Source: Antedon mediterranea
Taxonomy: Eukaryota; Animalia; Echinodermata
Length of the DNA stretch: 64,000 bases
Direction of reading: 5' to 3'
NCBI RefSeq assembly: GCF_964355755.1
Contig: NC_092671.1
Span: 22,828,070-22,892,069 of the forward strand
The notes beneath the pieces are model-generated. The model ran no database searches. It was not told the DNA's origin and saw only the letters and a program-made list of their open reading frames with translations. A program made the translations under genes and the position numbers. This document shows positions 5,700 through 43,800 of this stretch, in pieces. Positions within the stretch are counted from its first letter, which is position 1, and each line of letters begins with the position of its first letter.

Positions 5700-6397
5700 T
5701 ATATATATTGTATGTATATTTACAACAATTTGATACCAATTTTAAGTTTCTACGACTAGTACTAGTAGTACTATAGATATAAAGATGCCCTGGAATGTGG
5801 GTCAAAGGTCAGAAATTGCATTTATGATCATTTTCCACTAAAATGTCCCATTAGACTGAATATGAATGCATGCCTTCTCAACATTTTGAGACTAAAATTG
5901 ACTTGCTGCGACCAGTGGTTGCCAAGATACAAGTACCTATTTGTGTTTGTTCATATAACCCTTGACCCTGACCCTTTGACCTTCTGTAACATTTTTTAAT
6001 GTGCAACAAATAATAAAATGTATATTGCGAACAATGTAAGACCTAATTTAAGTGTCTACGACCAGTAGTTACGGAGATAGATACATGCCCTGGGTAGTGG
6101 GTCAAAAGTCAGAAATGGCATTTCCGGTCATTTTTGACTAAAATGTCCCATTAGACTGAATATAAATGTATACCCTCTGATCAATTTGAGATCAAAATTA
6201 CCTTGCTTTGACCAGTGGTTGTCGAAATTTATGGACCTATTGGTTTATAACCTTTCACCTGACCTTTTGACCTTTCGCCCCATTTTCAAAATGTGTAACC
6301 AGGCCAAAAATGATTGTTTGACCATTCTAAACCAATTTCGGAAGTCAAATTCTCTGGACCTCAAAGTGCATACGAAAGTAAGTTGATATAGCTACTA
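5700..6397 (+). mobile_element. Truncated right end of an Academ-like element
   Basis: ~240-bp subterminal repeats (gggtcaaaggtcagaaatggcattt...aaatgtcccattagact) resembling 12540-12700. Ends in ...gctaCTA directly against a HINE body. Left end not found. Confidence 0.5.
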
Positions 6398-7649
6398 GAG
6401 TAAATAGGTGAAATTACGGACCCGCCATTTATTCCAATTTTTAACATGGTGACCATATCAAAAAGAAACACTAAGATAGCAATATCGGAAGAAAATTATC
6501 TCACCAACAACATATTAACATGTAGAAGAAATTTGAATACATAAAATATAGATGTGTGCTCTTTTAAATGTGATGAACTATGACGCAAAATATGAAAATT
6601 TGACTTTTTTTATTCAACTGACCATATGATGACTTCACAACATCTGATTGGCAAAATGTTCACATGAATTCGTATCTACAATCCAATAACTTCCAGAAAA
6701 CGTTTTAATCATGATTATCACTTTTTATTCAGACGAGCTATAACAGATTGAAATTTACAGTAAATATGAAAATAAGAGGCCCACGTTATTTACATTTTCA
6801 AACAGTATGATGTCATAAAAATTTAAATATTTTTAACTTGTGTGAAAGACAATTGATTGACCTAGACAATATCAAAATCTGGGTGAAAATAGAAAACAGA
6901 TAAGTGGAGATGCGCTCTATTAAAATGTGCTATGACAAAAGATACAAAAATCCTAAAAAAAAAATGTTATATTCGGGTGGCCATACGATGACGTCACAAT
7001 GTCCGATTAGCCATATTAATGCATGATCCGACATCTACAACTAATCAACTTCCAGAATATGTAATAAAAATAACTTTCAACGTTTAGTTTAGAAACTATG
7101 ACTGTTTAAAAAATGCATAATTTTTATGAATTTTTGAACTTTTTCATAAAAAACACGCGCAAATTGTCCAATTCGACGTGATTGTATGATGTAATTTTTT
7201 AAAAATTGGTAAAATTACTAGAAAAGGCTGAAAAAACATAAATCACAGGGAAAAATATGTCTTTAACGCTACGTGCGCACTGTGCTCGTAAAAATATGCA
7301 CGCACGTGGGCATTTAGACATGCTCAAAATGACAAGAAACACGTAGAAAGTTGATAAGAAATTGTTTTTTCGCATTTTGAAATTTTAAATGCTCGTGTGG
7401 GCGTAACTTTCTGTGAAACATGCAATTTTTTTTACACAGAAAGTTAGCACAAGATGTAAATTAAAATTCTAAGTTTCAATTTAAATTGTTGTATGGTTTT
7501 CGATCTATATTAAATACGGGAAATTCAAAAAGTCACATTGTCACATTGCGCAATTCTGACGTCATTCAAAACAGGAGAAGCACAACTTCACATAAATGCC
7601 CACATGTTGACAAAGTTATAAAATGTTATGTTTTCACATTTTTGAGATA
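6398..7649 (-). mobile_element. HINE/Helentron-like body, interrupted by the Academ dimer and resuming at 18104
   Basis: Reverse complement of the ~1.5-kb bodies at 29150-30470. Continues after 18103 (atacgc...cacaaaaatgacagaaagaaagaagaa). Confidence 0.85.
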
Positions 7650-8526
7650 TAGTCAGGCAGCATTTGTCACTATATTAACTTTACTTCATATATTTAGCCA
7701 AGTTTGATTTTTCACTTTTAAATGATCAAGGACATCACAAGAAACAACTTCCAACTTGTTGTCCAAATTCTAAACGCGTTTTTCATTCGCTGGGGGCGCT
7801 TTTTCAAAATGGCCGCCTATGCTATCAAGTACTTATATCTCGGCAACCACTAATCGTAGAGACTTGGTTTTAGTCTTAAAATGTTCGTAAGGTACATAAT
7901 TCTATTCACTATAATGGAACATTTTGCCCTAAAATGACCGGAAATACTATTTCTGACCATTTAACCTTTGACCTGATCTTATCATATCTCAATAACTATT
8001 GGTCAGAAAGAGTTGATATTTATCCCAAATTTTTCAGAAAATACATGTTTTTATTTGCTTTAATGCAAAGGTTTGTTTCAAGATGGCCGGAAAAACCATA
8101 TCTGACCTTTGACCATAACCTGTGTGATATCCACAACATGTTGGTTATAGATAACATTTTTCGACAGATTGCTCAGAACATCCATATTTGTAACACATTA
8201 TTGATTTTTCAATTATTGATGCTTTAAAACATTCACTTAAGCTTGGAAATTAAAGTTTTAAAATAAATAAAAGCTACTCATTATCTCCATACATAATCCT
8301 AGCCTGTGATTGGCTGAAAGTTCAAGCAGATTAGATTTCATGAGTTTAAATGGTAAGTGTTTTTTAAACCGATTTAAACAGTGTTTGCTGGGAAATCATA
8401 CTTATTATTAGTACATATACATTTACTTGTATAATAATGTACCTATGCTGATATAAATGTTGTACAGAGAGGCCTTAGTTAAATAGTTATAAACTATAGT
8501 TCCAGTCTAGGCCTTGTCGCTAACAC

Positions 8527-10461
8527 CAGTGGTGGCGCCAGCGGGGGGGCTACGGGGGCTGTAGCCCCCTCGTCGGGGAGCCTAGCCCCCCACGTCGGGG
8601 AACGCGAGTACTTTTCGTCGGGGAATATAATATAAAGTAAAAATCATTCGCGTTCACTTCGTAGCTTCAGCGACTAGAAAACCACGAAGTTCCATTTTTG
8701 TTAAGTACGTCGGAGGGCTATTACACTTAATATTATGCATGCATTATTGCCAGCGATCTAATAAACAATAGGTATGCACTTGTCTGGCGGTGTCCCTTTG
8801 TACGAATCGTTTAACATTGGGCCCGGCCCATTGCGGTTTACGCGTGATATCATGTTCCACCCAGGGACCAGAATGTGTACTGTAGTTACTTTCCAGGCGA
8901 AGTTTACTGACGCGTTACGTCGTGTACTGTGTATCGACAGCAAAAGGGTACGAATTATCTTCGTGATCTACGGTATTTTATTGTTCGTATGTTCAATTTT
9001 TTTAATTTACGATTACCGTGGGGTACTGTAGGCTCGGCCTACATTACTAAACAAAAAACATGCCATTTTCGTTTAGCCAACATCTTATTACATTTCCAAT
9101 GTCCTGTATGTCATGAACTGCTCGTACATCGAAATTCGAGATTCACATTTGGGAAATAAACTGATTTCCCCGACGGAAAATGGTCTACGCTTGTGGATGC
9201 ATTCCCCTCCAAATAAAAGGTAAAAAGGGTAACTTGTTTAGGCCTCTATGTCTGAATTTTTTTAAAGTATAGGTGTAATTTTTGAAGACCTGCATCTCTA
9301 GTTTCCAAAATTGTCTTAGCTCAACCGTCCCCAATTATTGAGCTGGTCATGTATACTTACCGTACATTTTGTTTCATATTTCGATGTACAATATACAGTC
9401 AGTGCATTGAACCTAGAGCTCTATTTTTTCAATTTGTTTATATATCCATGGTAGGGCTGGTTCTGGAGACGTACCGGTATATATCTTGTTTATGCTTCGA
9501 AGTATAATAAGTAAAATTTCCGGGACCTAGCAACTCTATTTTTCAGAATGTTCTTAGCTCCACCCCAACCATGGTGGGCTGGACCTATAATTTCGTTTCA
9601 TATTTCAATGTTTTGCAGGGACCTAGCAGCTCTATTTTTGACAATTTTCTTAGCTCTGGTTCTGTAGACTTATAATTTCGTTTCATTTATCAATATGGGC
9701 CTATATAAGTGCAATTTCCAGGTACCTAGCAGGTCTATTTTTCACAATTTTCTTAGCAGCTCAACCATAATGGTAGGGCTGGTCCTGGAGCCTTATATAT
9801 TTTGTTTCTTTTTTTCGAAATACTATAATCCAATATCCGGGGACCAAACAACTCTAGTTGTTTAAATGTCCTTAGCTCCATCTCAACCTCGGTGGGCTTG
9901 TTCTCTGATAGACTTGTAATTTCGTTTTATATATCAATGTATAATTGCAATTTCCGGGGACCTAGCAGCTCTATTTTACAAAATTTTCTTACAGATCAGG
10001 CCATGGATATCTCGCGCATTTACAATTTTCGCACCCCCAGACAGCAACCTGCCTACGTCTCTGCGATTATAACGATATACCTCTTGGCCCGTGGGTAGGT
10101 TTTACGTTCACGTATATTTTCTATGATAGGCATATTGAACTTTAAAAACTTCATTTTTAAATTTGAAAGAATGGATTTACACAGTCATCGTACCGGACCT
10201 CTTGCAATGTGTTTTTCACACAGTATTTTATTTATGTACCATACAAAATTGAAAAAATTGGCTACCCTAAATCTGATTAAAACGGCCTCAAATTACGCTA
10301 TAACGTGTTGCTTCCGGGGGCTCCCCCTCCCCCCACCAGGGGCCCTTGGCGGCCCCCTGGCCCCCAGCCAAGTGATGCTCGCTTCACTCGCATAGCCCCC
10401 CTCCCCCACCCCCGTCGGAGAATTTAGCCCCCGCGTCGAAAAGATCCTGGCGCCACCCCTG
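8527..10461. mobile_element. Non-autonomous hAT-like element nested in Academ copy 1
   Basis: 15-bp TIRs CAG(T/G)GGTGGCGCCAG with 14/15 match. 8-bp TSD GCTAACAC at 8519-8526 and 10462-10469. Internal ~120-bp tandem repeats at ~9270-9990. Confidence 0.9.
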
Positions 10462-10548
10462 GCTAACACCTAGCAAACAATGCTAGCCTGGTGAGATCCC
10501 CGTAGAACTCAGTGACAAGCCAACTCAGTGCCTGGCATGGTAACCTCC

Positions 10549-12231
10549 GATGATGTCAGTCAAACGATTGAAAAGCGAGACCAATTAGGAAAAGAAGCAT
10601 TGGATAAAATTGTGACTTAACGAGTGGTTGAAAAAACCGTAAAATTTTGGGACCCTCAAAAGAAAAACAACTTCTCTTATTTCAAGGATGTAGGAGCAGT
10701 GGTGAAAACCAAAATTAAAGGTCAACTAATATAGTTTCAATTAAGCAAGAGAGAAAGATGCTGTCTAGATTGTTAGTTGTGGCAAAGAGCAGGCCAGAGT
10801 TCGCTCTAAAGGATGTCATAGGCAACTATGAGTTCAATAGCACTCCACCATCAAATTTCCATCCAGATGGAAGAATGGTATTGCAGTCAATAACAGAACT
10901 CCCTCTACCAGATAATGTCAGCAGGCCTGTACAGAAAGATGTTAAAAAGCAGCATCAATCCTAATTATTGATGGAATGTGTGTCGTCAATATGGTAAAGA
11001 AGGTGTCTGAAAAGTTCAATGCTTCTGACTTTGCATCTGAATTTGTTAACCTGATTGTTGGTATGAGCAAACCATATGATGAAGTTCGTCTTTTATTTGA
11101 TCAATATCTATCAGGATCTTTAAAAGAATCTACACGAGATAAAAGAAAACAGAAAACAACTACCATTCACTACCATGTCAATGACAACACTGAGATTAAG
11201 AACATTAAGACATTTTTATCGCACAAAGAGACCAAAGCTGAACTTACAAAATATCTGTCAGAGAAGATACCTAATCACTTCAAGAACAACACGAAGAAGG
11301 TCCTAGCAACACATCACACGTCCATGATGGCAAACTGCAATCTCTCAGAAGTTATCATGATGCCAGAGATGACACACGGACAAACACACATTGGAAGAAG
11401 GGGACCAACTGGTCTTATTGTATGCCTTTGATTGTATGAACAAAGACCCAGGTGCCAATGTTGACCTATTTTCTGTAGATACTGATGTCTTTATCCTTTT
11501 AACAGGAAGCTATCCTCTACTTCCTCCAATGACCACATTTTGTAGGAAAAGAGGGGAAAAAATACCTATATGGCAATGCTATTACCGACTTTGAAAACAA
11601 ATATCAGCAGCACTGATTGGATGGTACGCATTAGGTACAGATAACATAGGTACATTTGCTGGAAAAGGAGTGTCCACCCATTTCAAAGCACTTATGAAAT
11701 GTGACGATGAAATACTAGATGCATTTGCTGTATATGGACTGACCTCTGAAATACCAAATTGGATTTTCAGGCAAATGGAAAGATATGTTTGCATATTATA
11801 CAGTACTTCTAAGATCATGGCAGATTATGTCACAGACTTGAGATGGATGTTATTTGCACCGAAAGGCAAGGAAGGACAACAATTACCTCCAACCATGGGA
11901 ACTCTTAGACCACACGTGGAAAGAGCATACTACATGTCTATTGTATGTAATTCATCATGCAAGCCAACTCCATCTATTCCACCAGCAACTGACTACTCCC
12001 TGGCAACTAGAAGATGGTCACTTGAAGCCGGTATTTTTCAACAATCCACCAGCACCAGAAGCTCTTCTAGAAATTCGTCGATGTACCAGCAATGGTTCAT
12101 GTTCAACAAATCGCTGTAGTTGTAAGAAAAACAACTTGCTCTGTACTGATGCATGTGAGTGTGGTGATGGATGTGAGAATACAAAGGACTGGAATGTAGA
12201 GCTAGTAGACGATATCGATGAACTTTATTGA
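10549..12231 (+). pseudogene. C-terminal part of Academ protein (XPG/FEN1-like PIN nuclease plus Cys8/CXC finger), frameshifted
   Basis: Motifs across frames: LSRLLVVAKSRPE, IDGM, FDQY...SLK..TRDKR, EEGD, VDTDVFILL, GTD...FAGKG, LPPT...LRPHVERAYY, CTSNGSCSTNRCSCKKNNLLCTDACECGDGCEN. Several stops and frameshifts. Confidence 0.82.
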
Positions 12232-13752
12232 CTGGAGAGGGTAATCTGACTATATTCAATATTTATGGTATGTATTTATTTATTATAACAGTTCCATTGG
12301 TGATTTGAAATATTGATTTTGGAACAAGGGATATCATCAACAAAACCACAAGTACTGGTACAAGTTATAAACAATACCAGACAAATCTATAGACTCTCAG
12401 TTGTGGATATTACATGCATTAGGGCAAGAGGTCAGATATGGCATTTCTGTTTGCTTTAAAACAAAACATTTAATTACAGTAAATATAAAAAGGCATACTG
12501 TGAACAATTTGAAACAAATTTCAAGTCTGTGTGACCATTAGTTACCGAGATATGATGATAGAAGGTCAAAGGTCAAACGGTCAGAAATGGCATTTTCAGT
12601 CATTTCTGGTCAAAATATTCCATTAGAGTAAATAGAAATATGTACCTTACAAACATTTTAAGATTAAAACCAAGTCTCTACGATTAGTGGTTGCCGAGAT
12701 ACAAGTACTTGATAGCATAAGTGGCCATTTTGAAAAAGCGCCCCCAGCGAATGAAAAACGCGTTTAGAATTTGGACAACAAGTTGGAAGTTGTTCGTTGT
12801 GATGTCCTTGATCACTTAAAAGTGAAAAATCAAACTTGGCTAAATATATGAAGTAAAATACAAATGCTGCCTGACTAGTCAGGCAGCATTTGTCACTATA
12901 TTAACTTTACTTCATATATTTAGCCAAGTTTGATTTTTCACTTTTAAATGATCAAGGACATCACAAGAAACAACTTCCAACTTGTTGTCCAAATTCTAAA
13001 CGCGTTTTTCATTCGCTGGGGGCGCTTTTTCAAAATGGCCGCCTATGCTATCAAGTACTTATATCTCGGCAACCACTAATCGTAGAGACTTGGTTTTAGT
13101 CTTAAAATGTTCGTAAGGTACATAATTCTATTCACTATAATGGAACATTTTGCCCTAAAATGACCGGAAATACTATTTCTGACCATTTAACCTTTGACCT
13201 GATCTTATCATATCTCAATAACTATTGGTCAGAAAGAGTTGATATTTATCCCAAATTTTTCAGAAAATACATGTTTTTATTTGCTTTAATGCAAAGGTTT
13301 GTTTCAAGATGGCCGGAAAAACCATATCTGACCTTTGACCATAACCTGTGTGATATCCACAACATGTTGGTTATAGATAACATTTTTCGACAGATTGCTC
13401 AGAACATCCATATTTGTAACACATTATTGATTTTTCAATTATTGATGCTTTAAAACATTCACTTAAGCTTGGAAATTAAAGTTTTAAAATAAATAAAAGC
13501 TACTCATTATCTCCATACATAATCCTAGCCTGTGATTGGCTGAAAGTTCAAGCAGATTAGATTTCATGAGTTTAAATGGTAAGTGTTTTTTAAACCGATT
13601 TAAACAGTGTTTGCTGGGAAATCATACTTATTATTAGTACATATACATTTACTTGTATAATAATGTACCTATGCTGATATAAATGTTGTACAGAGAGGCC
13701 TTAGTTAAATAGTTATAAACTATAGTTCCAGTCTAGGCCTTGTCGCTAACAC

Positions 13753-15687
13753 CAGTGGTGGCGCCAGCGGGGGGGCTACGGGGGCTGTAGCCCCCTCGTC
13801 GGGGAGCCTAGCCCCCCACGTCGGGGAACGCGAGTACTTTTCGTCGGGGAATATAATATAAAGTAAAAATCATTCGCGTTCACTTCGTAGCTTCAGCGAC
13901 TAGAAAACCACGAAGTTCCATTTTTGTTAAGTACGTCGGAGGGCTATTACACTTAATATTATGCATGCATTATTGCCAGCGATCTAATAAACAATAGGTA
14001 TGCACTTGTCTGGCGGTGTCCCTTTGTACGAATCGTTTAACATTGGGCCCGGCCCATTGCGGTTTACGCGTGATATCATGTTCCACCCAGGGACCAGAAT
14101 GTGTACTGTAGTTACTTTCCAGGCGAAGTTTACTGACGCGTTACGTCGTGTACTGTGTATCGACAGCAAAAGGGTACGAATTATCTTCGTGATCTACGGT
14201 ATTTTATTGTTCGTATGTTCAATTTTTTTAATTTACGATTACCGTGGGGTACTGTAGGCTCGGCCTACATTACTAAACAAAAAACATGCCATTTTCGTTT
14301 AGCCAACATCTTATTACATTTCCAATGTCCTGTATGTCATGAACTGCTCGTACATCGAAATTCGAGATTCACATTTGGGAAATAAACTGATTTCCCCGAC
14401 GGAAAATGGTCTACGCTTGTGGATGCATTCCCCTCCAAATAAAAGGTAAAAAGGGTAACTTGTTTAGGCCTCTATGTCTGAATTTTTTTAAAGTATAGGT
14501 GTAATTTTTGAAGACCTGCATCTCTAGTTTCCAAAATTGTCTTAGCTCAACCGTCCCCAATTATTGAGCTGGTCATGTATACTTACCGTACATTTTGTTT
14601 CATATTTCGATGTACAATATACAGTCAGTGCATTGAACCTAGAGCTCTATTTTTTCAATTTGTTTATATATCCATGGTAGGGCTGGTTCTGGAGACGTAC
14701 CGGTATATATCTTGTTTATGCTTCGAAGTATAATAAGTAAAATTTCCGGGACCTAGCAACTCTATTTTTCAGAATGTTCTTAGCTCCACCCCAACCATGG
14801 TGGGCTGGACCTATAATTTCGTTTCATATTTCAATGTTTTGCAGGGACCTAGCAGCTCTATTTTTGACAATTTTCTTAGCTCTGGTTCTGTAGACTTATA
14901 ATTTCGTTTCATTTATCAATATGGGCCTATATAAGTGCAATTTCCAGGTACCTAGCAGGTCTATTTTTCACAATTTTCTTAGCAGCTCAACCATAATGGT
15001 AGGGCTGGTCCTGGAGCCTTATATATTTTGTTTCTTTTTTTCGAAATACTATAATCCAATATCCGGGGACCAAACAACTCTAGTTGTTTAAATGTCCTTA
15101 GCTCCATCTCAACCTCGGTGGGCTTGTTCTCTGATAGACTTGTAATTTCGTTTTATATATCAATGTATAATTGCAATTTCCGGGGACCTAGCAGCTCTAT
15201 TTTACAAAATTTTCTTACAGATCAGGCCATGGATATCTCGCGCATTTACAATTTTCGCACCCCCAGACAGCAACCTGCCTACGTCTCTGCGATTATAACG
15301 ATATACCTCTTGGCCCGTGGGTAGGTTTTACGTTCACGTATATTTTCTATGATAGGCATATTGAACTTTAAAAACTTCATTTTTAAATTTGAAAGAATGG
15401 ATTTACACAGTCATCGTACCGGACCTCTTGCAATGTGTTTTTCACACAGTATTTTATTTATGTACCATACAAAATTGAAAAAATTGGCTACCCTAAATCT
15501 GATTAAAACGGCCTCAAATTACGCTATAACGTGTTGCTTCCGGGGGCTCCCCCTCCCCCCACCAGGGGCCCTTGGCGGCCCCCTGGCCCCCAGCCAAGTG
15601 ATGCTCGCTTCACTCGCATAGCCCCCCTCCCCCACCCCCGTCGGAGAATTTAGCCCCCGCGTCGAAAAGATCCTGGCGCCACCCCTG
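13753..15687. mobile_element. Non-autonomous hAT-like element nested in Academ copy 2
   Basis: Duplicate of 8527-10461 with the same GCTAACAC TSD. Confidence 0.9.
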
Positions 15688-15774
15688 GCTAACACCTAGC
15701 AAACAATGCTAGCCTGGTGAGATCCCCGTAGAACTCAGTGACAAGCCAACTCAGTGCCTGGCATGGTAACCTCC

Positions 15775-17457
15775 GATGATGTCAGTCAAACGATTGAAAA
15801 GCGAGACCAATTAGGAAAAGAAGCATTGGATAAAATTGTGACTTAACGAGTGGTTGAAAAAACCGTAAAATTTTGGGACCCTCAAAAGAAAAACAACTTC
15901 TCTTATTTCAAGGATGTAGGAGCAGTGGTGAAAACCAAAATTAAAGGTCAACTAATATAGTTTCAATTAAGCAAGAGAGAAAGATGCTGTCTAGATTGTT
16001 AGTTGTGGCAAAGAGCAGGCCAGAGTTCGCTCTAAAGGATGTCATAGGCAACTATGAGTTCAATAGCACTCCACCATCAAATTTCCATCCAGATGGAAGA
16101 ATGGTATTGCAGTCAATAACAGAACTCCCTCTACCAGATAATGTCAGCAGGCCTGTACAGAAAGATGATAAAAAGCAGCATCAATCCTAATTATTGATGG
16201 AATGTGTGTCGTCAATATGGTAAAGAAGGTGTCTGAAAAGTTCAATGCTTCTGACTTTGCATCTGAATTTGTTAACCTGATTGTTGGTATGAGCAAACCA
16301 TATGATGAAGTTCGTCTTTTATTTGATCAATATCTATCAGGATCTTTAAAAGAATCTACACGAGATAAAAGAAAACAGAAAACAACTACCATTCACTACC
16401 ATGTCAATGACAACACTGAGATTAAGAACATTAAGACATTTTTATCGCACAAAGAGACCAAAGCTGAACTTACAAAATATCTGTCAGAGAAGATACCTAA
16501 TCACTTCAAGAACAACACGAAGAAGGTCCTAGCAACACATCACACGTCCATGATGGCAAACTGCAATCTCTCAGAAGTTATCATGATGCCAGAGATGACA
16601 CACGGACAAACACACATTGGAAGAAGGGGACCAACTGGTCTTATTGTATGCCTTTGATTGTATGAACAAAGACCCAGGTGCCAATGTTGACCTATTTTCT
16701 GTAGATACTGATGTCTTTATCCTTTTAACAGGAAGCTATCCTCTACTTCCTCCAATGACCACATTTTGTAGGAAAAGAGGGGAAAAAATACCTATATGGC
16801 AATGCTATTACCGACTTTGAAAACAAATATCAGCAGCACTGATTGGATGGTACGCATTAGGTACAGATAACATAGGTACATTTGCTGGAAAAGGAGTGTC
16901 CACCCATTTCAAAGCACTTATGAAATGTGACGATGAAATACTAGATGCATTTGCTGTATATGGACTGACCTCTGAAATACCAAATTGGATTTTCAGGCAA
17001 ATGGAAAGATATGTTTGCATATTATACAGTACTTCTAAGATCATGGCAGATTATGTCACAGACTTGAGATGGATGTTATTTGCACCGAAAGGCAAGGAAG
17101 GACAACAATTACCTCCAACCATGGGAACTCTTAGACCACACGTGGAAAGAGCATACTACATGTCTATTGTATGTAATTCATCATGCAAGCCAACTCCATC
17201 TATTCCACCAGCAACTGACTACTCCCTGGCAACTAGAAGATGGTCACTTGAAGCCGGTATTTTTCAACAATCCACCAGCACCAGAAGCTCTTCTAGAAAT
17301 TCGTCGATGTACCAGCAATGGTTCATGTTCAACAAATCGCTGTAGTTGTAAGAAAAACAACTTGCTCTGTACTGATGCATGTGAGTGTGGTGATGGATGT
17401 GAGAATACAAAGGACTGGAATGTAGAGCTAGTAGACGATATCGATGAACTTTATTGA
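15775..17457 (+). pseudogene. Academ XPG-like/Cys8 pseudogene, copy 2
   Basis: Same disrupted frames as 10549-12231. Confidence 0.82.
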
Positions 17458-18140
17458 CTGGAGAGGGTAATCTGACTATATTCAATATTTATGGTATGTA
17501 TTTATTTATTATAACAGTTCCATTGGTGATTTGAAATATTGATTTTGGAACAAGGGATATCATCAACAAAACCACAAGTACTGGTACAAGTTATAAACAA
17601 TACCAGACAAATCTATAGACTCTCAGTTGTGGATATTACATGCATTAGGGCAAGAGGTCAGATATGGCATTTCTGTTTGCTTTAAAACAAAACATTTAAT
17701 TACAGTAAATATAAAAAGGCATACTGTGAACAATTTGAAACAAATTTCAAGTCTGTGTGACCATTAGTTACCGAGATATGATGATAGAAGGTCAAAGGTC
17801 AAACGGTCAGAAATGGCATTTTCAGTCATTTCTGGTCAAAATATTCCATTAGAGTAAATAGAAATATGTACCTTACAAACATTTTAAGATTAAAACCAAG
17901 TCTCTACGATTAGTGGTTGCCGAGATACAAGTACTTGATAGCATAAGTGGCCATTTTGAAAAAGCGCCCCCAGCGAATGAAAAACGCGTTTAGAATTTGG
18001 ACAACAAGTTGGAAGTTGTTCGTTGTGATGTCCTTGATCACTTAAAAGTGAAAAATCAAACTTGGCTAAATATATGAAGTAAAATACAAATGCTGCCTGA
18101 CTAATACGCAAGCCACAAAAATGACAGAAAGAAAGAAGAA

Positions 18141-18336: not shown

Positions 18337-18486
18337 TTGGAAGAATTTTATCTGGTTGTGGAATAGGTATTACATAAAATTTCTTTTTGAACAACCAAAA
18401 ATAGTATAAGCAAACTTACAGTACGTTTCGAAACCTATCAGGTTTCATTCTCAACTGGCGTTTCATCGTCTAGCGTTGTTAATCCC

Positions 18487-19728
18487 ATGACGACGATGAG
18501 TTGGTATAGCGCCACCAACAGGTCCAAAAGGACTGAAAATGTACCACGCCTCTATTGCTTACCCAAAGTACACAAACCAAATTGGCCCATCCGACCAATT
18601 GTTGACAGTATTAACACCATTTTCTACGGAGTGTCACGCTACATTAAGGAAATCCTCAAACCCCTAGTAGGCAACTCAAAACATCATGTTGAGAACTCCA
18701 AACAGCTAGCGAAGGAAATTAGGAACATAAACATCCCTCCTAATGAAACACTAATATCATTTGATGTTGTTTCTTTGTACACAAAAACACCAGTAAAAGA
18801 AGCAGTAAAAACCGTAGAACATTGCCTAAAACAGGACAAGCAACTTAACACAAGACCAAAATTAGAAGTGGTTGACATCATTGAGCTATCACTGATTCTC
18901 AACGCCACTTATTTCAGTTTCAAAGGCAAAATATACAAACAAAAGGAAGGTTTAGCGATGGGCAGTCCCATCAGCCCCATCATAGCAAATTTGTTTATGG
19001 AATGGTTAGAGTCGGAGGCGATTGCTACAGCACCAATGGAATTCAAACCCTCCATACGGTATCGCTATGTCGATGACATTCTTGCCAGCATTCCCTTGCA
19101 TGCAGCTACTGATCTAAACACTCACTTAAACAACATTGACACTACCCAAAACATTAAATTCACCACCGAATGCATGTCTAACAACACCATTCCTTTTTTG
19201 GACATTCTTATAACACTACAAAGCAACCGATCATTAACAACTTCAGTCTACAGAAAACCGACACACACAGATCAGTATTTAAATTTCAAGTCAAATCACC
19301 CATTACAACACAAACTCAGTGTTATTAATACGCTTGTGGACAGATGTGAAAACATAGTTTCAACACCTGAAGGACAGAAACAGGAAATGGACCACATCAG
19401 ACCGGCTTTGAAGAAATGCGACTACCCAGATTGGACATTCAAGAAGGTAGAAAAACAACGACTCCAAAAACAGCAACGACAGCTTGATCAAAATCGCAGC
19501 AAAGGTACAACATCTACTAAAGAAAAGTCACGTTGTAATATCGGGATCCCATACACAAAAGGTCTGTCTGAACGCATAAAAAGAGTATTCAACCAACATC
19601 AAATTGACACCTTTTTCATCCCATCTAATAAGATCAGGCAAAACCTCGTTCATCCGAAAGACCGCATCGAAAAAGATCAAGTATGCGGTTGCATCTACAA
19701 ACTACAATGTTTGAACTGTCCACAGTAG
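18487..19728 (+). CDS. Penelope-type reverse transcriptase with start of GIY-YIG domain (truncated)
   Basis: LYCLPKVHK..PIRPIV, SFDVVSLYT, GLAMGSPISP, RYVDD, PFLD, VYRKPTHTDQYL, GIPY, GCIYKLQCLNC. The stop codon is the TAG terminus of the inserted Academ. Confidence 0.9.
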   Translation: MTTMSWYSATNRSKRTENVPRLYCLPKVHKPNWPIRPIVDSINTIFYGVSRYIKEILKPLVGNSKHHVENSKQLAKEIRNINIPPNETLISFDVVSLYTKTPVKEAVKTVEHCLKQDKQLNTRPKLEVVDIIELSLILNATYFSFKGKIYKQKEGLAMGSPISPIIANLFMEWLESEAIATAPMEFKPSIRYRYVDDILASIPLHAATDLNTHLNNIDTTQNIKFTTECMSNNTIPFLDILITLQSNRSLTTSVYRKPTHTDQYLNFKSNHPLQHKLSVINTLVDRCENIVSTPEGQKQEMDHIRPALKKCDYPDWTFKKVEKQRLQKQQRQLDQNRSKGTTSTKEKSRCNIGIPYTKGLSERIKRVFNQHQIDTFFIPSNKIRQNLVHPKDRIEKDQVCGCIYKLQCLNCPQ

Positions 19729-20684
19729 TAGGCCTGTTAAGTGACCCAATCCTTCAAATTGTGATAACATTCTGAAACTTTGCACAGTTATTCATTAGGG
19801 TGTCAAAAATATGAAATGGAAGGGTTGCACAAAATTTGGTCAGGGGAAAGCCGCCATTTTGGATTTCAAAATGGCGGACCCAAATTTTTCACTTTTCAGG
19901 TATATCTCTGCTAAATAGGCACCTAGAGTTCTGAATTTAGGTGCAAATTATATGGTAATGGGGTCACCCAACATATTGGTATAACTAACATTTTAATTGC
20001 ATGGCGGCCATTTTGGATTTCAAAATGGCGGACTTCAAATTTTTCACTTTTCAGGTATATCTCTGCTAAATAGGCACCTAGAGTTCTGAATTTAGGTGCA
20101 AATTATATGGTAATGGGGTCACCCAACATATTGGAATAACTAACATTTTAATTCCATGGCGGCCATGTTGGATTTCAAAATGGCGGATTTCAAATTTCCT
20201 TTTTTCAGGTATATCTCTGCTAAAAAGGCACCTAGAGTTCTGATTTTAGGTGCAAATTATATGTTAATGGGGTCACCAAACATATTGGTATAACTAACAT
20301 TTTGATTGCACGGCGGCCATTTTGGATTTCAAAATGGCGGACTTCAAATTTTCACTTTTCAGGTATCTCTGCTAAAAAGGTACAGAGTTCTGATTTTAGG
20401 TGCCAATTATATGGTAATGGGTAACCAAACATATTGGTATTTAACTGACATTTTTATTGCATGGCGGTCATTTTGAATTTCAAAATGGCGAACTCAAAAT
20501 GTTTCAGTGCGGTACCTACAGTTATAATTTTAGGTAGGCCTACAAAGTATAATATAATATTGAGGTCAACAAACATATTAGTATAACGTCATTGATTGCA
20601 TGGCGGCCATTTTTAATGTAGCTCAACCCGTACTGGCTTTACACTATTTGTTTATGTTCATAATTACATGCATTTAACACGGAC

Positions 20685-21733
20685 ACTTATTGTAGGTCAC
20701 ATTTTCCCTGGCAACCACACAGCTCTGTACATCGTAAATCACTCTTTCTGCATTTACAGCATCCAAGATCACAGTCGGTGTGTCCAAAGCGAATTAAAAC
20801 CTTTGTGACATCTGAAAGTTCTCCAAGCAATGAACTCCAAGCTGGACTAAATTTGTTGCCTTCCTTCCTCTATCCCCAGTTCGCTGGGTCCTGTCCAACC
20901 CTGAATGCATCTAGACAGTCGTACCACTTCCTGGCTTCCGTTTCACATGTTCTCTTAATGCCGCAGATGTTGGGGGATATTTTCAATAGTCTTTCTCTTG
21001 TTGTAAAAAGATATCGTATTGCATCATTAAATGTTCTGCAGTAGACATACTTACAACAAACTGTTCTAGATAATCTGTGTCTGTTTCACTAACAAGCCCT
21101 ACAGACAATGACATCCTCTCAAAAACTGGAGTAATACATGGCATCTTTTTCGAAGTCTCGTTAAATGTAGCTTTACCTTTTCCTTAAACAGATGAAGTTC
21201 TATCACAACCGCTAATGGTATGAAAGAACAAGTAAGCGGCTGATGCTTGTGATCCAAGAAAAGAAGCAATCTCGTGTATTGGGATGTACTTCAAGTGCTT
21301 CCCCACTCCAAACTCGATCAGAAGCTTGTGAATGCCAGGTATTCTGTGGAAAGCTGACAACAACATCACTGTGTACAGTCTTGACAATGCGTGGAAAATT
21401 TCAGCGGCAAGTTTAACGTGAACAAACATACGTTCACCTGCCTCTTCTATGTTACATGGCATAGGCGATTGTATATTTACTGGTTTGTTACAGCTCTGTC
21501 TCCCAAAGACCCTACAAACATTCCGTGATTTGTGCCAATGTTCTCTACTACTTCAGTTACAATAAATGAAAACAACTCTGATTTGTTGTCATCAAATCTA
21601 AAAAATGTGGTCCAATTGTTGGGCATGCTCCCGCTGGCTTTAACGACCCTCTTTACACCAGAAACGCGGTTTGAACGCGTACCAGACTTTAAACTGTCAT
21701 TTATCTATCGAAAAACAAATCTAGTCGTGTCAC
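20685..21733 (-). pseudogene. Academ XPG-like/Cys8 C-terminal remnant, left arm
   Basis: LKSGTR, NWTTF...NKSELF, CNIEEAGERMFVHV, FGVGKHLKYIPIHEI, FHTISGCD, then a terminal Cys cluster. Disrupted. Confidence 0.8.
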
Positions 21734-21744
21734 TGATCGAAGTT

Positions 21745-22614
21745 GACACAAATCACGGAATGTTTGTAGGATCTCTAGGAGACAGAGCTGCAACAAACCA
21801 GTCTGTAAATATACAACTGCTGATGCCATGTAACATAGAGGCAGATGAATGTATGTTTGTTCATGTTAAACATGCCGCTGAAATTTTTCCGCGCATTCTT
21901 GTCAAGACTGTAGACAGTGATGTTATTGTTATTGCATTGTCAGCTTTCCACAGAATACCTAGGATCCACGAGCTTTGGATCGAGTTTGGAGTGGGGAAGC
22001 ACATCCCAATACACGAGATTGTTTCTTCTCTTGGACCACAAGCATCAGCCGCTTACTTGTTCTTTCATTCCTTTAGCGGTTGTGATACAACTTCATCCTT
22101 TCAAGGAAAAGGTAAAGCTACATTTAACCCGACTTGGAAAAAGATGCCATGAATGACTTCAGTTTTCGATAGGATGTCATTGTCTGTAAGGTAAAGTGTC
22201 GAGACCTAAGCTAATGATAATGGCCGTGGTGCCATCTCCATTTCTTTAGCGTTTGAGCCAGACTCCACTAAGTGTGTATGTTTGTGGGGGTACGCCACTC
22301 CTCCTGCACAAACGAGTCTGATTTACGTTCCCAGTACCTTTTTCTATCATCCGGGTGAGGAGGAACAATGTGGATAAAGAATCTTGCTTAAGGACTCAAC
22401 ACTGCAGTGACCGACCGGGCTTGAACCAGCAACCTCTTGATTGCAAGTCCAATGCTCTAACCACTGCGCCACAGTGCTCCACATCTCAGATGTCACAAAG
22501 GTTTTAATTCGCTGTGGACACACCGACTGTGATCTTGGACGCTGTAAATGCAGAAAGAGTGATTTACGATATACAGAGCTGTGTGGTTGCCAGGGAAAAT
22601 GTGACCTACAATAA
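21745..22614 (+). pseudogene. Academ XPG-like/Cys8 C-terminal remnant, right arm, disrupted by a SINE
   Basis: CNIEADECMFVHVKHA, VKTVDSDV, HSFSGCDTTSSFQGKGK. Inverted copy of 20685-21535. Confidence 0.8.
22188..22482 (-). mobile_element. tRNA-derived SINE (possible CORE-like domain)
   Basis: Minus strand has A box TGGCGCAGTGGTTAG, B box GGTTCAAGCCC, then gagtccttaagcaag and a ctttacctta tail. Confidence 0.8.
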
Positions 22615-23436
22615 GTGTCCATGTTAAATGCATGTAACTATAAACATAAACAAATAGTGTAAAGCCAGTACAGTTTGAGCTACGTTCAAAATGGCCGGCG
22701 GCGGCAATGCAATCAAAGAAGTTACCCATTACCATATCATTTGCACCTAAAATCAGAACTCTAGGTGCCTCTTTAGCAGAGATATACCTGAAAAGTGAAA
22801 ATTTGAAGTCCGCCATTTTAAAATCCAACATGGCCGCCATGCAATCAAAATGTTAGTTATACCAATATGTTTGGTGACCCCACTACCATTATAATTTGCA
22901 CCTAAAATCAGAACTCTAGGTGCCTTTTTAGCAGAGATATACCTGAAAAGTGAAAATTTGGGGTCCGCCATTTTGAAATCAAACATGGCCGCCATGCAAT
23001 CAAAATGTTAGTTATACCAATATGTTTGGTGACCCCACTACCATATAATTTGCACCTAAAATCAGAACTCTAGGTGCCTTTTTAGCAGAGATATACCTGA
23101 AAAGTGAAAATTTGGGGTCCGCCATTTTGAAATCAAACATGGCCGCCATGCAATCAAAATGTTAGTTATACCAATATGTTTGGTGACCCCACTACCATAT
23201 AATTTGCACCTAAAATCAGAACTCTAGGTGCCTTTTTAGCAGAGATATACCTGAAAAGTGAAAATTTGGGGTCCGCCATTTTGAAATCCAAAATGGCGGC
23301 TTTCCCCTGACCAAATTTTGTGCAACCCTTCCATTTCATGTTTTTGACACCCTAATGAATAACTGTGCAAAGTTTCAAAATATTATCACAATTTGAAGGA
23401 TTTGCCTAAAATATGCATCTTAACATGCCTACTACA

Positions 23437-23826
23437 GGGGAAACAGGGAGGGCTTTAAAAACACGCATAAAAGAACATCGCACAGACACAGAAAACAACA
23501 CGGGAGGGATTTTAACCAGGGCTCAAAGATCGTCTACATCATCAATCATACATAAATCTGCAATAACAGATCATGCACTACAACACAATCACCTCATTGA
23601 TTGGAACGCTGCTATCCTTGAGAAAGAATGCAACACTCAAAAAAGGCAAATAAAAGAGTCGATCAACATCAGAAAATATGGAAAAATCATGAACAGAGAT
23701 GAAGGAGCCCACGAATTGTCACACATTTATGATCAACTATTGGAGAAGGGGGCACGTCCTTTTGGACCTATTGGTGGCGCTATACCAACTCATCGTCGTC
23801 ATGGGATTAACAACGCTAGACGATGA
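23437..23826 (+). pseudogene. GIY-YIG endonuclease C-terminal part of the Penelope ORF
   Basis: GETGRALKTRIKEH, SAITDH, HLIDW, RQIKESINI, MNRDEG. Confidence 0.85.
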
Positions 23827-23831
23827 AACGC

Positions 23832-23870
23832 CAGTTGAGAATGAAACCTGATAGGTTTCGAAACGTACTG
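23832..23870 (+). ncRNA. Minimal hammerhead-ribozyme-like motif in the Penelope pseudo-LTR (antisense copy at 18419-18457)
   Basis: cagt-TGAGAAT-[gaaacc tgata ggtttc]-GAAACGT-actg. Stems and GAAA box sit where Penelope-type hammerheads occur, but the core deviates from CUGANGA. Confidence 0.55.
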
Positions 23871-24039
23871 TAAGTTCGCTTATACTATTTTTGGTTGTTC
23901 AAAAAGAAATTTTATGTAATATTTTAATATGATTCCTAAAATCATTCGACAATCTGAAAATGTTATTTCCTTTAAACGTGAACTTTAACTCCAGTTAATA
24001 TTGTTCGTACTATGTATATATATATATATATATTTTTTT

Positions 24040-40824: not shown

Positions 40825-43800
40825 GAAAATGAAAAAGTTCGTCAAAATTATTTTAAAAAATGTTTAAACAGTCATAGATTCTAAACTACGAGGTGAACTT
40901 TTTTTAAATTACACATTCTAGAAGTTGATGAGTTGTAGATATCGGATCATGCATTAATATGGCTAACCGGACATTGTGACGTCATCGTATGGCCACGCGA
41001 ATATAAAATATAGAATTTTTGTATCTTTTGTCATAGCTCATCACATTCAATAAGGCGCATCACGCTTATCCGTATTCCATTTTCTCCAAGATTTTAATAT
41101 TGTCTCGGTCAATCCACTATCTTTTGCACGAGTTAAAATATTTAAATTTTTGATGACGTAAATTAAATTACGTGGGTCATTAATTTCATCTTTACAGTAA
41201 ATTTAATCTGTTATAGTTCGTAAGAATAAAAAGAGATAATCACAATTAAAACGTTTTCTGGAAGTTATTGGATTGTAGATTCGAAATCATGCAAACATTT
41301 TGCCAATCGGGTGTTGTGACGTAATCATATGGCCAGTTGAATAAAAAAAGTTGCATTTTCATCCTTTGCGTCATAGTTTATTACATTTAAAATAGGCTAG
41401 TCAATCTAGCATTTTGAGTGAAACAAATTGCAAACAGAGATTTTTTTTTTTTAAATGGTTACATATGATAAGGTGATTATTTTTTGAGCATCACACCTCT
41501 GACACTCATCCCGAAGGTATGCAAATTAGCTTAAATATGCAAATTAGGGTGAAATTACAGGGTTACCATATCTTAAAAACTACTAATCGTAGAGAGTTCA
41601 TTTTTGCACAGTCTGGTTCAGAATATATATATTTATATTTGCTCTAATGAGACATTTTACCTAAAAATGTCCGGAAGTACCAAATTTTGACCCTTGACCC
41701 CATTTCTCAATATTTACATAAATATGTGATTAAAATGTCTGTAGAGACTTTATTTTGGACTCAATGACTTGGATATTGTTTTTCAATACCCACCATAGAA
41801 CTGTATTATAATTCCTAAAATCACAACTTCGTCACGCACCTCGAAAGTATGCAAATTAGTAGTACAAGTAATATTAAATATGCAAATTAGGGAGTGAAAT
41901 TACAGCGTTGCCATATCTCGAAAACCGCTAATGCTAGAGTGTTGATTTTTTCACTAAAATATTTAAAATGTATATATTTATATTTGCTGTAATGAGACAT
42001 TTTACAAAAAAATTCCCGGAACTATGACATTTGACCCTCGACCCCATTTCTCAATATTGCATATATAATGAAAACTAAAATGTCTGTAGAGACTTTATTT
42101 TGCCCTCAAATGACTCGGATACAGGTTTCTAATAGCCAACATAGGAATGTTTAGTAAATCTCAAAATCACACCTGTATCACTCACCTTCAAAGTATGAAA
42201 ATTATTAGTACAAGTTACATGAAATATGCAAATTAGGGGATGAAATTACAGGTTCCTATATGTATCGAAAACCGCTAAGGTAGAGAGTTGATTTTTTCAA
42301 AAACTTGTTCAGAATGTACATATTTATATTTGCTCTAATGAAACATTTTACGAAAAAATGACCGGAAATACAACAATTGACCCTTGACCCTATTTATCAA
42401 TGTTTGCATACATAATGCGACTAAAATGTCTGTAGATAATTTTTTTGGACTCAAATGACTCGGATACAGTTTTCCTATTGTCAGCATAGGACCTCTTTGT
42501 AATTCCCAAAATCACATCTTTGTCACATACCTTGAAAGTATGCAAATTATTAGTACAAGTTACATGAAATATGCAAATTAGGGGTGAAATTACAGTCTTC
42601 CCATATCTCGAAAACCATTAATGCTAGAGAGTTGATTTGAATTCAGAGTTGATTCAGAATGTACATATTTATATTCGCTGTAATGAAACATTTTATGCAA
42701 AAATTGTCTTGATTGAATTATGACATTTGACCCTTGACCCTATTTCTCAATATTTTCATATAATTCAACTAAAATATCTGTACAGACTGTTTTGGCCTCA
42801 AATGACTCAGATACAGGTTTTCTATAGCCAGCATAGAACTGTAGTAATTCTCAAAATCACACCTTTGTTACTTCCCTAGAAAATATGCAAATTAGTAGTA
42901 CAAGAGGTGAAAGTTGCCATATCTCTATCGGTCATTAGCGTTTTTCGAGATACATAAGGCTGTAATTTGCATATTTCATATAACTTGTACTAATAATTTG
43001 CATACTTTCGAGTTGCTTGACTTTTGGAATTACTAAACGATCCTATACTGGCTATATAAAACCTGTATCCAAGTCATTTGAGACCAAAACAAAGTATGTA
43101 CATACATTTTAGTTGCATTATATGCAAATATTGAGAAATAATAATAATAATATCCTGGATTTATATAGCGCCTAATGTTGTGTAACCTCTAAGCGCTGTA
43201 CATAAACTAATACGAAAAAAGGGAATTCCAACCATGCCAAAACGAAGGCGTGATTTTGGGAATTACAAAGCGGTCCTATGCTGACTATAGCAAACATATA
43301 TCCGAGTTATTTGAGTCCAAAACAAAGTCTCTACAGACATTTTAGTCGCATTATGTATGCAAACATTAATAAATGGGGTCGAGGGTCAATTGTTGTATTT
43401 CCGGTCATTTTTTCGTAAAATGTTTCATTAGAGTAAATATAAATATGTACATTCTGAACAAGTTATTGAAAAAAATCAACTCTCTAGCCTTAGTGGTTTT
43501 CGATATATAGGAACCTTTAATTTCACCTTCTAATTTGCATATTTCATGTAACTTGTACTAATTTGTATACTTTGGAGGTGAGTGATACAGGTGTGATTTT
43601 GAGATCTACTAAACAGTCCTATGTTGGCTATTAGAAACCTGTATCGGAGTCATTTGACGGCAAAACAAAGTCTCTACAGACATTTTAGTTTCATTTATAT
43701 ATGCAATATTGAGAAATGGGGTCGAGGGTCAAATGTCATACTTCCGGTCAATTTTTTGTAAAATGTTTCATTGGAGCAAATAGAAATATGTACATTTTGA

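What the first reader, a model, noticed from the sequence alone, without database searches (positions are those of the whole stretch)
12540..13210. Precise head-to-tail Academ dimer joined through a single shared TA
The junction reads ...GCTGCCTGAC-TA-GTCAGGCAGC...: the final TA of copy 1 is the first TA of copy 2. There is no target DNA or TSD between them, and one ATA TSD flanks the whole 10.45-kb dimer. Ordinary insertion next to an existing copy would leave a 3-bp duplication, and a random duplication is unlikely to hit both termini exactly. Inference: ends cut in a staggered way across the terminal TA are ligated end to end (circle junction or sister-chromatid end joining). That would reveal cleavage chemistry for a poorly studied superfamily.
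Basis: partly seen in the sequence, partly recalled or inferred. Interest (0 to 1): 0.8.

Follow-up and report, generated by a model that had tools for sequence, protein, structure and literature searches.

The report
Tip-to-tip transposon dimer sharing TA
Two almost identical copies of a dead, Academ-like jumping-DNA element lie head to tail, overlapping by a single TA inside one 3-base target duplication; this layout was likely made by joining two cut element ends, not by a second insertion, and it gives a first but unproven hint of how this little-studied family cuts its ends.

Summary
Window 7650-12877 and 12876-18103 are two 5,228-bp copies that differ at 1 base and overlap by exactly one TA. 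A single ATA duplication flanks the pair. Seven of 7 uninterrupted paralogs of the host repeat in the window read GAG-ATA-CGC, and contigs from two public samples agree. So ATA is a true 3-bp target duplication and the terminal TAs belong to the element. That rules out a simple second insertion, including a Tc1-like insertion into a flanking TA.

The element is a deleted, frameshifted, non-autonomous copy. Its full-length relatives fold as a DDE transposase (best match P element transposase, Z 10.3) followed by an XPG/EXO1-type nuclease (Z 16.0). Together with the 3-bp duplication, this fits the AcademX lineage.

The junction is best read as a cut right end ligated to a cut left end through the shared TA. 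The route remains open: sister-chromatid joining, a circle plus recombination, or re-cutting after a double insertion. The junction cannot separate a 2-nt staggered cut from microhomology repair.

No read support for the dimer could be obtained, because the public contigs were too short, so an assembly artefact remains possible. Interest is moderate.

The parts
7647..7649 (.). Left copy of the 3-bp target site duplication (ATA)
   Evidence: single ATA in 7 of 7 paralogous empty sites and in contigs from runs X4 and X1
7650..12877 (+). Copy 1 of the 5,228-bp non-autonomous Academ-like element (TAGTCAGGCAGC...GCTGCCTGACTA)
7650..8137 (+). Left terminal inverted repeat of copy 1 (about 488 nt, 83.8% identical to the right one)
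9278..9993 (+). Internal array of about 100-120-bp units sharing a 43-nt core (6 units); repeated at 14504-15219 in copy 2
   Evidence: family D1
10522..12225 (+). Decayed coding remnant covering the C-terminal ~570 residues (XPG/EXO1-like nuclease plus CXC domain) of a ~1,600-aa transposase, with at least 4 frame changes; same remnant at 15748-17451 in copy 2
   Evidence: five P0004 segments starting at 10540, 10731, 10955, 11385 and 12001, in frames 1, 0, 2, 0, 1; for the fold of relatives
10942..10942 (+). The only difference between the copies (T here, A at 16168)
12400..12877 (-). Right terminal inverted repeat of copy 1
12876..12877 (.). Shared TA: last two bases of copy 1 and first two bases of copy 2
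12860..12893. 34-nt perfect palindrome formed by the two abutted ends, inside a quasi-palindrome with ~488-nt arms (84% complementary over the 473 nt scored)
   Evidence: (I4)
12876..18103 (+). Copy 2 of the element (99.98% identical to copy 1)
18104..18106 (.). Right copy of the 3-bp target site duplication (ATA)

Best explanation
Two 5,228-bp copies of a deleted, frameshifted, non-autonomous AcademX-like DNA transposon lie head to tail, overlapping by one TA inside a single 3-bp ATA target duplication. The junction was likely made when a transposase-cut right end and a cut left end were ligated through their identical terminal TA, not by a second insertion.

Shown directly: the structure; the 3-bp duplication; that the TAs belong to the element; that the coding part is dead, so any mobilisation must be in trans; and that full-length relatives combine a DDE transposase fold with an XPG/EXO1-type nuclease fold.

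Inferred: that the ends were cut by a family transposase. The two ends may have come from sister chromatids, which would give a dimer on one chromatid and an empty site on the other. Alternatively an excised element closed into a circle through the TA and then recombined with a resident copy. A third route is that the inner ends of a double insertion were cut and re-joined. All three routes give the same product.

Not decided: whether the 2-nt overlap reflects self-complementary TA overhangs from a 2-nt staggered cut, or 2-nt microhomology used by end joining.
For: Exact geometry: period 5226, one TA shared, 1 mismatch in 5,228. ATA is a genuine 3-bp duplication of a site that reads GAG-ATA-CGC when empty: 7 of 7 in-window paralogs, plus 2 contigs in X4 and 1 in X1. 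Two other TA-ended long-TIR elements in the window also have identical 3-mers beside their ends: E2 with AAA, confirmed by 4 of 4 paralogous empty sites, and E3 with CAG. The chance of identical 3-mers is 0.021-0.023 per element. The junction holds no target copy, so double insertion alone fails; by enumeration from the sequence, no 3-bp target overlapping an end gives this junction. All four frame changes are shared by both copies, so the duplication is far younger than the decay. Other insertions of the family exist at other flanks: one search shows loose ends at 12876 (1 contig in X1, 2 each in X3, X4 and X6, which are one sample), so the family has moved. Family assignment: the AF2 model of relative P0031 (pLDDT 85.7), residues 559-938, matches human EXO1 at Z 16.0, rmsd 3.6 A, 258-261 residues aligned, and FEN1 at Z 14.6. 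The model of P0001 residues 2-644 matches P element transposase at Z 10.3 (295 aligned, rmsd 4.5 A) and Hermes and Tn5 at Z 8.1. Nearly all of the first 37 rows are DDE transposases, integrases or other RNase H-like folds. D351 and E605 are invariant and D33 is near-invariant. Ligation of excised transposon ends into circles is documented for Sleeping Beauty (PMC6943129, passages read), and TA-guided pairing of cut ends for Paramecium IESs (PMC3077386, passages read).
Against: This is one locus in one assembly. No read or contig spanning the junction, or either copy, could be shown. The public runs are held only as short contigs, and none of the 28 pieces listed (216 more were not shown) bridges 12876/12877. 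The flanks are a very high-copy repeat, a setting where assemblies err more often. A relative in a metagenome contig (L003, ends TAGTCAGGCGGC.../TAGTCAGGCAGC...) has flanks TAT and ATG, so no 3-bp duplication, although such a contig may be chimeric or the copy old. Nothing here shows that a transposase made the breaks. The shared TA cannot tell overhang ligation from microhomology repair. The second example in another genome (e1-9720304) is an unchecked note whose sequence I could not see.
Confidence: 0.55

Rival explanations
1. Double insertion followed by a small deletion. A second copy landed in the same ATA target, as described for P element and hobo dimers, giving ...GACTA-ATA-TAGTC.... 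Five bases (TAATA) were later lost between the two TA repeats by slippage, without any transposase cut.
For: Double insertion is the documented main route to DNA-transposon tandem dimers in Drosophila, and 24 of 36 hobo dimers carried small deletions at the junction (PMC5932611, passages read). The predicted intermediate contains TA-ATA-TA, so a 5-bp loss through TA microhomology gives exactly the observed junction (from the sequence).
Against: It needs two rare events: a hit on one particular 3-bp site, then a deletion that removes exactly the spacer plus one TA and leaves both 488-nt TIRs otherwise intact. Meanwhile the copies differ at only 1 of 5,228 bases. No intermediate with a retained ATA is seen in the window (one search finds only the four ends). 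If the deletion followed cutting of the inner ends, this rival merges with the best explanation.
Confidence: 0.13
2. Assembly artefact. The genome carries one copy at this site, and the assembler chained two copies, for example two haplotypes differing at 10942, or reads from circular or concatemeric molecules.
For: The region is embedded in very high-copy repeats. The two copies are nearly identical. No independent read or contig support for the junction was obtained.
Against: A spurious join would still need reads that carry a right end abutting a left end. The two TIR arms are inverted and only 84% alike, so they offer no direct-repeat overlap to mislead an assembler. The breakpoints fall to the base on both termini. 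The copies differ by a substitution that is not in a homopolymer. A similar structure is noted in another genome (unchecked).
Confidence: 0.17
3. Transposase-independent tandem duplication, through replication template switching or microhomology-mediated break-induced replication, that used the TA at each end of a single copy as microhomology.
For: The junction has 2-nt microhomology, and the flanking duplication is preserved, as expected for an in-place duplication. The long TIRs could form a hairpin that stalls replication near the ends.
Against: Random breakpoints would have to hit both termini of a 5.2-kb element to the base. TA occurs many hundreds of times in and around the element, so nothing but end recognition singles out these two.
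Confidence: 0.08
4. The element is GTCAGG...CCTGAC with a Tc1/mariner-like TA target duplication, and the dimer is an ordinary second insertion into the flanking TA.
For: TA-E-TA-E-TA is exactly what such an insertion would give. L003 has TA but no matching 3-mers beside its ends.
Against: The empty site would then read GAGATA-TA-ATACGC. Instead, 7 of 7 paralogs and contigs from two samples read GAG-ATA-CGC. E2's 4 of 4 paralogs likewise show a 3-bp duplication with TA inside the element. Three of 3 window elements have identical flanking 3-mers, with a combined chance of about 1e-5.
Confidence: 0.01

Closest known systems
AcademX lineage of the Academ superfamily of eukaryotic DNA transposons (Kapitonov & Jurka 2010; Kojima 2020; neither paper held here; known through passages of PMC10045372, and from recall)
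   Same: 3-bp target duplication (AcademX: 3 or 4 bp), TIRs, and full-length relatives of about 1,500-1,650 aa that combine a DDE transposase fold with a Rad2/XPG/EXO1-type nuclease fold. That the X in AcademX stands for XPG is recalled; one search says only 'nuclease'.
   Different: This copy is a 5.2-kb deletion derivative with a frameshifted remnant of the nuclease/CXC part only. Sequence-level membership against curated Academ transposases could not be tested because no library is held. No tandem dimer or end-to-end junction is reported for Academ in the papers searched (0 papers).
Tandem dimers of P element and hobo in Drosophila made by double insertion (McGurk & Barbash 2018, PMC5932611, passages read)
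   Same: Head-to-tail pairs of young DNA transposons with intact TIRs.
   Different: Those junctions keep a copy of the target duplication (8 bp). Here the 3-bp target is absent and the ends overlap by 2 nt.
Bari1 tandem arrays of Drosophila (Caizzi 1993 and Marsano 2003, as discussed in PMC5932611)
   Same: Head-to-tail junctions without a target duplication. Circle formation or deletion after double insertion have been proposed.
   Different: Bari1 junctions lack several terminal nucleotides and the arrays end in partial elements. Here both ends are complete apart from sharing one TA, and there are exactly two copies.
Circles of excised cut-and-paste elements, such as Sleeping Beauty transposon circles (PMC6943129, passages read)
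   Same: Right and left ends of one excised element ligated to each other by host repair; some junctions are simple religations of the cut ends.
   Different: Those are extrachromosomal dead-end products, whereas this is a chromosomal dimer. A circle here would also have needed recombination with a resident copy.
TA-bounded IES excision in Paramecium by PiggyMac (PMC3077386, passages read)
   Same: Ends defined by TA. The cuts are staggered across the TA, and both chromosome and circle junctions are made by pairing the TAs, leaving a single TA.
   Different: That system uses a domesticated piggyBac transposase with 4-base 5' overhangs, and its TA is shared with the flank. Here the TA lies inside the element next to a 3-bp duplication, and the cut geometry is unknown.
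Bacterial (IS)2 dimers and minicircles, such as IS30 (PMC9333248, search listing and abstract only)
   Same: Two element copies with abutted inverted repeats formed by the transposase itself.
   Different: The IS junctions carry a short spacer and are intermediates of copy-out-paste-in transposition (spacer length recalled). Here the ends overlap, and nothing shows that the junction is reactive.

Membership tests
Academ superfamily, AcademX lineage | Target site duplication of 3 or 4 bp | tested here: met
   ATA is duplicated and the empty site reads GAG-ATA-CGC in 7 of 7 paralogs and in contigs of X4 and X1. The related E2 has AAA, confirmed by 4 of 4 paralogs, and E3 has CAG. The criterion comes from PMC10045372.
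Academ superfamily, AcademX lineage | Terminal inverted repeats | tested here: met
   TIRs of about 488 nt at 83.8% identity, with ends TAGTCAGGCAGCATTTGT.
Academ superfamily, AcademX lineage | Element-encoded nuclease of the XPG/Rad2 family | tested here: met
   Model of relative P0031, residues 559-938, against human EXO1: Z 16.0, rmsd 3.6 A, 258-261 residues aligned; FEN1 Z 14.6; GEN1 Z 12.4. Foldseek gave 16 hits with E<=1e-3, all those listed being FEN/EXO1/XRN-type. The profile hit EXO1 at E 0.015. In the window only a frameshifted remnant of this domain remains.
Academ superfamily, AcademX lineage | DDE transposase with an RNase H-like core | tested here: met
   Model of relative P0001, residues 2-644, against P element transposase: Z 10.3, 295 aligned, rmsd 4.5 A; Hermes and Tn5 Z 8.1; integrases Z 7-8. 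The strand-helix order places D33 on strand 1, D351 after strand 4 and E605 on a helix. Foldseek on the whole model found nothing at E<=1e-3. This domain is absent from the window's copies.
Academ superfamily, AcademX lineage | Sequence similarity of the transposase core to curated Academ transposases (Repbase; Yuan & Wessler 2011 alignment) | not testable with these tools
   No Academ profile is in Pfam: 0 families matched in 6 of 6 relatives, and PMC5751038 states that the Academ RNase H domain has no Pfam match. The defining papers are not held.
Tandem dimer by double insertion at one target | A copy of the target duplication between the two elements | tested here: not met
   The junction is GAC-TA-GTC with no ATA. 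The criterion comes from PMC5932611.
Tc1/mariner-type insertion (TA target duplication) | TA is target-derived and present once at the empty site | tested here: not met
   Empty sites read GAG-ATA-CGC, not GAGATA-TA-ATACGC.
IS-type (IS)2 reactive dimer | Abutted inverted repeats separated by a short spacer, active as a transposition intermediate | tested here: inconclusive
   The ends are abutted but overlap by 2 nt, with no spacer. Activity of the junction cannot be tested here.

The most novel reading that the evidence does not exclude
AcademX elements are released by cuts staggered 2 nt across their conserved terminal TA, perhaps with the element's own XPG-type nuclease cutting the non-transferred strand. 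Every excised end, and every donor flank, would then carry a self-complementary TA overhang. Ends would ligate readily to each other, giving circles and, between sister chromatids, exact tip-to-tip dimers as a recurrent by-product; a second such dimer is noted in another genome. Donor sites would be resealed as TSD-TA-TSD footprints.
Probability: 0.22. Interest if true: 0.65.

Novelty: new variant of a known kind. Interest (0 to 1): 0.45.

Why it matters
Nothing is known experimentally about how Academ transposons are cut and pasted, or why one lineage carries an XPG-type nuclease next to its transposase. A junction where two complete ends meet through one shared TA, with no target copy, is a natural record of two cut ends being joined. 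If it recurs, it limits the possible end structures and predicts a specific excision footprint (TSD-TA-TSD) that can be looked for. It is also an example of a tandem transposon dimer that the usual double-insertion route does not explain, which bears on how tandem arrays and satellites start from mobile elements. As it stands it is a single, unvalidated locus, so its value is as a pointer to cheap decisive tests.

Tried and rejected
1. Whole genome: none is held, so no genome-wide census of junctions or copies was possible.

2. Read support for the junction. The runs found are all stored as short contigs. In one search, none of the 28 listed pieces bridges 12876/12877 (216 further pieces were not shown) and no joints were listed. 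X1 has no cover at 12729-12845. This neither supports nor refutes the dimer.

3. X7 laid nothing on the left flank. This is no evidence of absence.

4. Earlier-findings index. Neither the sequence look-ups nor the place look-ups (genome; relatives) found any look-alike. Only a word search gave the lead e1-9720304.

5. Pfam on the window ORFs gave only sub-threshold hits: TCR at E 0.45 and SNaCT11 at E 0.013. Pfam on 6 relatives gave nothing.

6. phmmer of P0004 against the PDB gave only a chance hit (HEXIM1, E 1).

7. Foldseek on the whole P0001 model gave no hit at E<=1e-3. The DDE fold appeared only with VIA-align wide.

8. Metagenome loci (11 loci). L003 is a relative with both ends but no 3-bp duplication. 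L004 has a left end only. L002's left end coincides with the contig start. None has a right-end/left-end junction.

9. The terminal motif in viral contigs gave 2 hits. Both have only the 18-mer in common with the element, so they are taken as chance. The junction motif in viral contigs gave 0 hits.

10. The Penelope-like element interrupted by E3 was tried as an empty-site test. Its reading frame does not close under either duplication model, and there is no second copy in the window, so this was dropped.

11. The inverted pair 18368-18533/23756-23921 looked like a TA-ended transposon without a 3-bp duplication. It is in fact the Penelope-like element's inverted ends.

12. A naive scan for TA-starting inverted repeats gave 731 mostly chance pairs and was abandoned.

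13. Supplements of PMC10294476: 12 of 33 files were searched and 'Academ' and 'TSD' did not occur. The unsearched files may hold the curated Academ consensus ends.

14. Kojima 2020 and Yuan & Wessler 2011 are not held.

Full report
**What is there.** The junction at 12860-12893 reads ACAAATGCTGCCTGAC-TA-GTCAGGCAGCATTTGT, a 34-nt perfect palindrome centred on TA 12876-12877. A shift of 5226 bases brings 7650-12877 onto 12876-18103. The two 5,228-nt copies differ at one base (10942 T, 16168 A), and the last TA of copy 1 is the first TA of copy 2. Each copy has TIRs of about 488 nt at 83.8% identity. The 18-nt end motif occurs only at the four ends in the window, 4 matches against 0.06 expected. 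The outer flanks read GAG ATA|TAGTC and GACTA|ATA CGC.

**Which bases are target and which are element.** The sequence allows two readings. In one, the element is TAGTC...GACTA with a 3-bp ATA duplication. In the other, it is GTCAGG...CCTGAC with a TA duplication, and the dimer would then be an ordinary second insertion into the flanking TA. The flanks turned out to belong to a repeat that has uninterrupted paralogs in the same window. All 7 of 7 read ...AGATA|CGC...CACAAAAA..., with one ATA and no extra TA. Contigs from public runs agree. Two contigs of X4 match the left flank up to 7649 and continue with CGCGAGACACAAAAATGACAG, which is the window's right flank from 18107. One contig of X1 (another organism label) reads GAG-TTA-CGCG.... 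So ATA is a true 3-bp duplication and the TAs are element ends.

Two further TA-ended long-TIR elements in the window behave the same way:
- E2 (41393-44381, ends TAGGCTAGTC...) has AAA on both sides, confirmed by 4 of 4 paralogous empty sites.
- E3 (19726-23434, ends TAGTAGGC...) has CAG on both sides.

The chance of identical 3-mers is 0.021-0.023 per element. One counter-example is L003, a relative on a metagenome contig with almost the same ends, whose flanks are TAT and ATG. Such a contig may be chimeric, or the copy may be old.

**What the element is.** The only coding similarity in each copy is at 10522-12225 (15748-17451 in copy 2). It matches residues 1036-1605 of a 1,606-aa protein (P0004) in five abutting segments in frames 1, 0, 2, 0, 1, so there are at least four frameshifts and no room for introns. 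The remaining 2.9 kb on the left has no protein match. The element is therefore a deleted, dead, non-autonomous copy. Both copies share every defect, so the duplication is much younger than the decay.

The closest protein is an uncharacterised 1,002-aa protein of a feather star, at 77% identity. The family is large: 5,696 representative proteins at E<=1e-3, with full length about 1,500-1,650 aa. It has no Pfam match in 6 of 6 proteins tested.

Two AlphaFold models were made.
- P0031 (pLDDT 85.7), residues 559-938: human EXO1 at Z 16.0 (rmsd 3.6 A, 258-261 aligned), FEN1 at Z 14.6 and GEN1 at Z 12.4. All Foldseek hits listed are 5'-nuclease folds. The sequence profile gives weak support: EXO1 at E 0.015 and the LIN54 CXC domain at E 0.0015.
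- P0001 (pLDDT 74.4), residues 2-644: best match P element transposase (Z 10.3, 295 aligned), then Hermes and Tn5 (Z 8.1) and retroviral integrases. D33 lies on strand 1, invariant D351 follows strand 4, and invariant E605 lies on a helix. Foldseek on this whole model found nothing at E<=1e-3.

A DDE transposase plus an XPG/Rad2-type nuclease plus a 3-bp duplication fits the AcademX lineage. PMC10045372 states that AcademX makes 3-4-bp duplications and encodes a nuclease; that X stands for XPG is my recollection. Direct comparison with curated Academ transposases was not possible.

**How the junction could arise.** With a 3-bp duplication and TA inside the element, a second insertion cannot give GAC-TA-GTC. 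I tried every 3-bp target around the ends on paper, and each leaves extra bases at the junction or at the outer flank. Double insertion into the same ATA, the common route in Drosophila where the junction keeps the target copy (PMC5932611), would give GACTA-ATA-TAGTC, which is not what is seen.

The simplest single event is ligation of a cut right end to a cut left end. There are three possible routes:
- The ends came from sister chromatids, giving a dimer on one chromatid and an empty site on the other.
- An excised copy closed into a circle and then recombined with a resident copy.
- The inner ends of a double insertion were cut, the 3-bp spacer was lost, and the ends were re-joined.

All three routes keep the original ATA on the outside, as observed. 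Ligated ends of excised elements are known for Sleeping Beauty circles (PMC6943129). Pairing of cut ends through a TA is known for Paramecium IES excision (PMC3077386).

The junction does not show the cut geometry. A 2-nt stagger would leave self-complementary TA overhangs that ligate directly. Any ends that finish in TA can equally be joined through 2-nt microhomology.

**Is it real?** I could not test the assembly. No whole genome is held. The public runs are stored as short contigs, and none of the pieces listed bridges the junction. The locus lies in very high-copy repeats.

Three points argue against an artefact. An assembler would still need reads that carry a right end against a left end. 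The TIR arms are inverted and only 84% alike. The copies differ by a clean substitution. The contigs do show other insertions of the family at other flanks, so the family has been mobile. Sequence look-ups found no similarity to this window, so it may be an independent case, but I could not inspect it.

**Verdict.** The ordinary explanations, a second insertion and a TA target, are excluded by empty sites. The Academ assignment is supported at the level of folds and duplication length. End-to-end joining through the terminal TA is the best reading (about 0.55). The rivals are an assembly artefact (0.17), double insertion plus slippage (0.13) and a transposase-independent duplication (0.08).

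Tandem transposon dimers and ligated ends are both known. A target-free, exactly overlapping junction in Academ was not found in the papers searched. I rate it a new variant of a known kind, of moderate interest, with cheap decisive tests available.

Noticed in passing
window 41393-44381 (flanks AAA at 41390-41392 and 44382-44384): E2, a 2,989-bp long-TIR element with ends TAGGCTAGTCAATCTAGCA, no ORF of 90 aa or more lying within it, and a 3-bp AAA duplication confirmed by 4 paralogous empty sites. From base 6 its end resembles E1's end (TAGTCAATCTAGCATTTTG versus TAGTCAGGCAGCATTTGT).
   Followed up: partly
window 19726-23434 (flanks CAG at 19723-19725 and 23435-23437): E3, a 3,709-bp element with ends TAGTAGGC. 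It is almost a complete foldback: it carries two inverted, diverged copies of the XPG-like nuclease/CXC remnant (about 20696-21510 on the minus strand and 21706-22605 on the plus strand). It belongs to the same superfamily but a different family. How the foldback arose was not studied.
   Followed up: partly
window 18368-23921: A Penelope-like retroelement (RT ORF 18391-19728, GIY-YIG part 23410-23826, inverted ends 18368-18533/23756-23921 at 99%) is split by E3. Its reading frame is off by one base across the insertion site under either duplication model; this is unexplained.
   Followed up: partly
window 6800-7649 and 18104 onwards; paralogs at about 25.0-37.0 kb and 40.8-41.4 kb: The host sequence of both E1 and E2 is a roughly 850-bp-plus repeat ending in an A-rich tail. 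At least 7 further copies lie on the minus strand of the window at spacings of about 1.1-3.0 kb. Very large summed contig depths appear in runs X3 and X4 (up to about 3e6), so it is probably a very abundant SINE- or LINE-tail-like family. It was not classified.
   Followed up: no
window 9278-9993 (and 14504-15219): An internal array inside E1 of six units of about 100-120 bp sharing a 43-nt core, function unknown. Subterminal repeats of 121 nt (12431-12551, 12580-12700) also resemble 6108-6228 outside the element.
   Followed up: no
L003 126-3156; L004 108 onwards; L002 1 to about 6886: Metagenome contigs carry relatives. L003 and L004 have ends nearly identical to E1's (TAGTCAGGCGGCATTTGT). 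L003, like E1, is a deletion derivative keeping the 3' coding part. L002 has ends TAGTTACAC. All ends examined start with TAG.
   Followed up: partly
window 5800-6231 and 41578-44196: Fragments 69-77% similar to E1's subterminal regions lie outside the dimer. Those at 41.6-44.2 kb are parts of E2's long TIRs. The ones at 5.8-6.2 kb were not assigned to an element.
   Followed up: no
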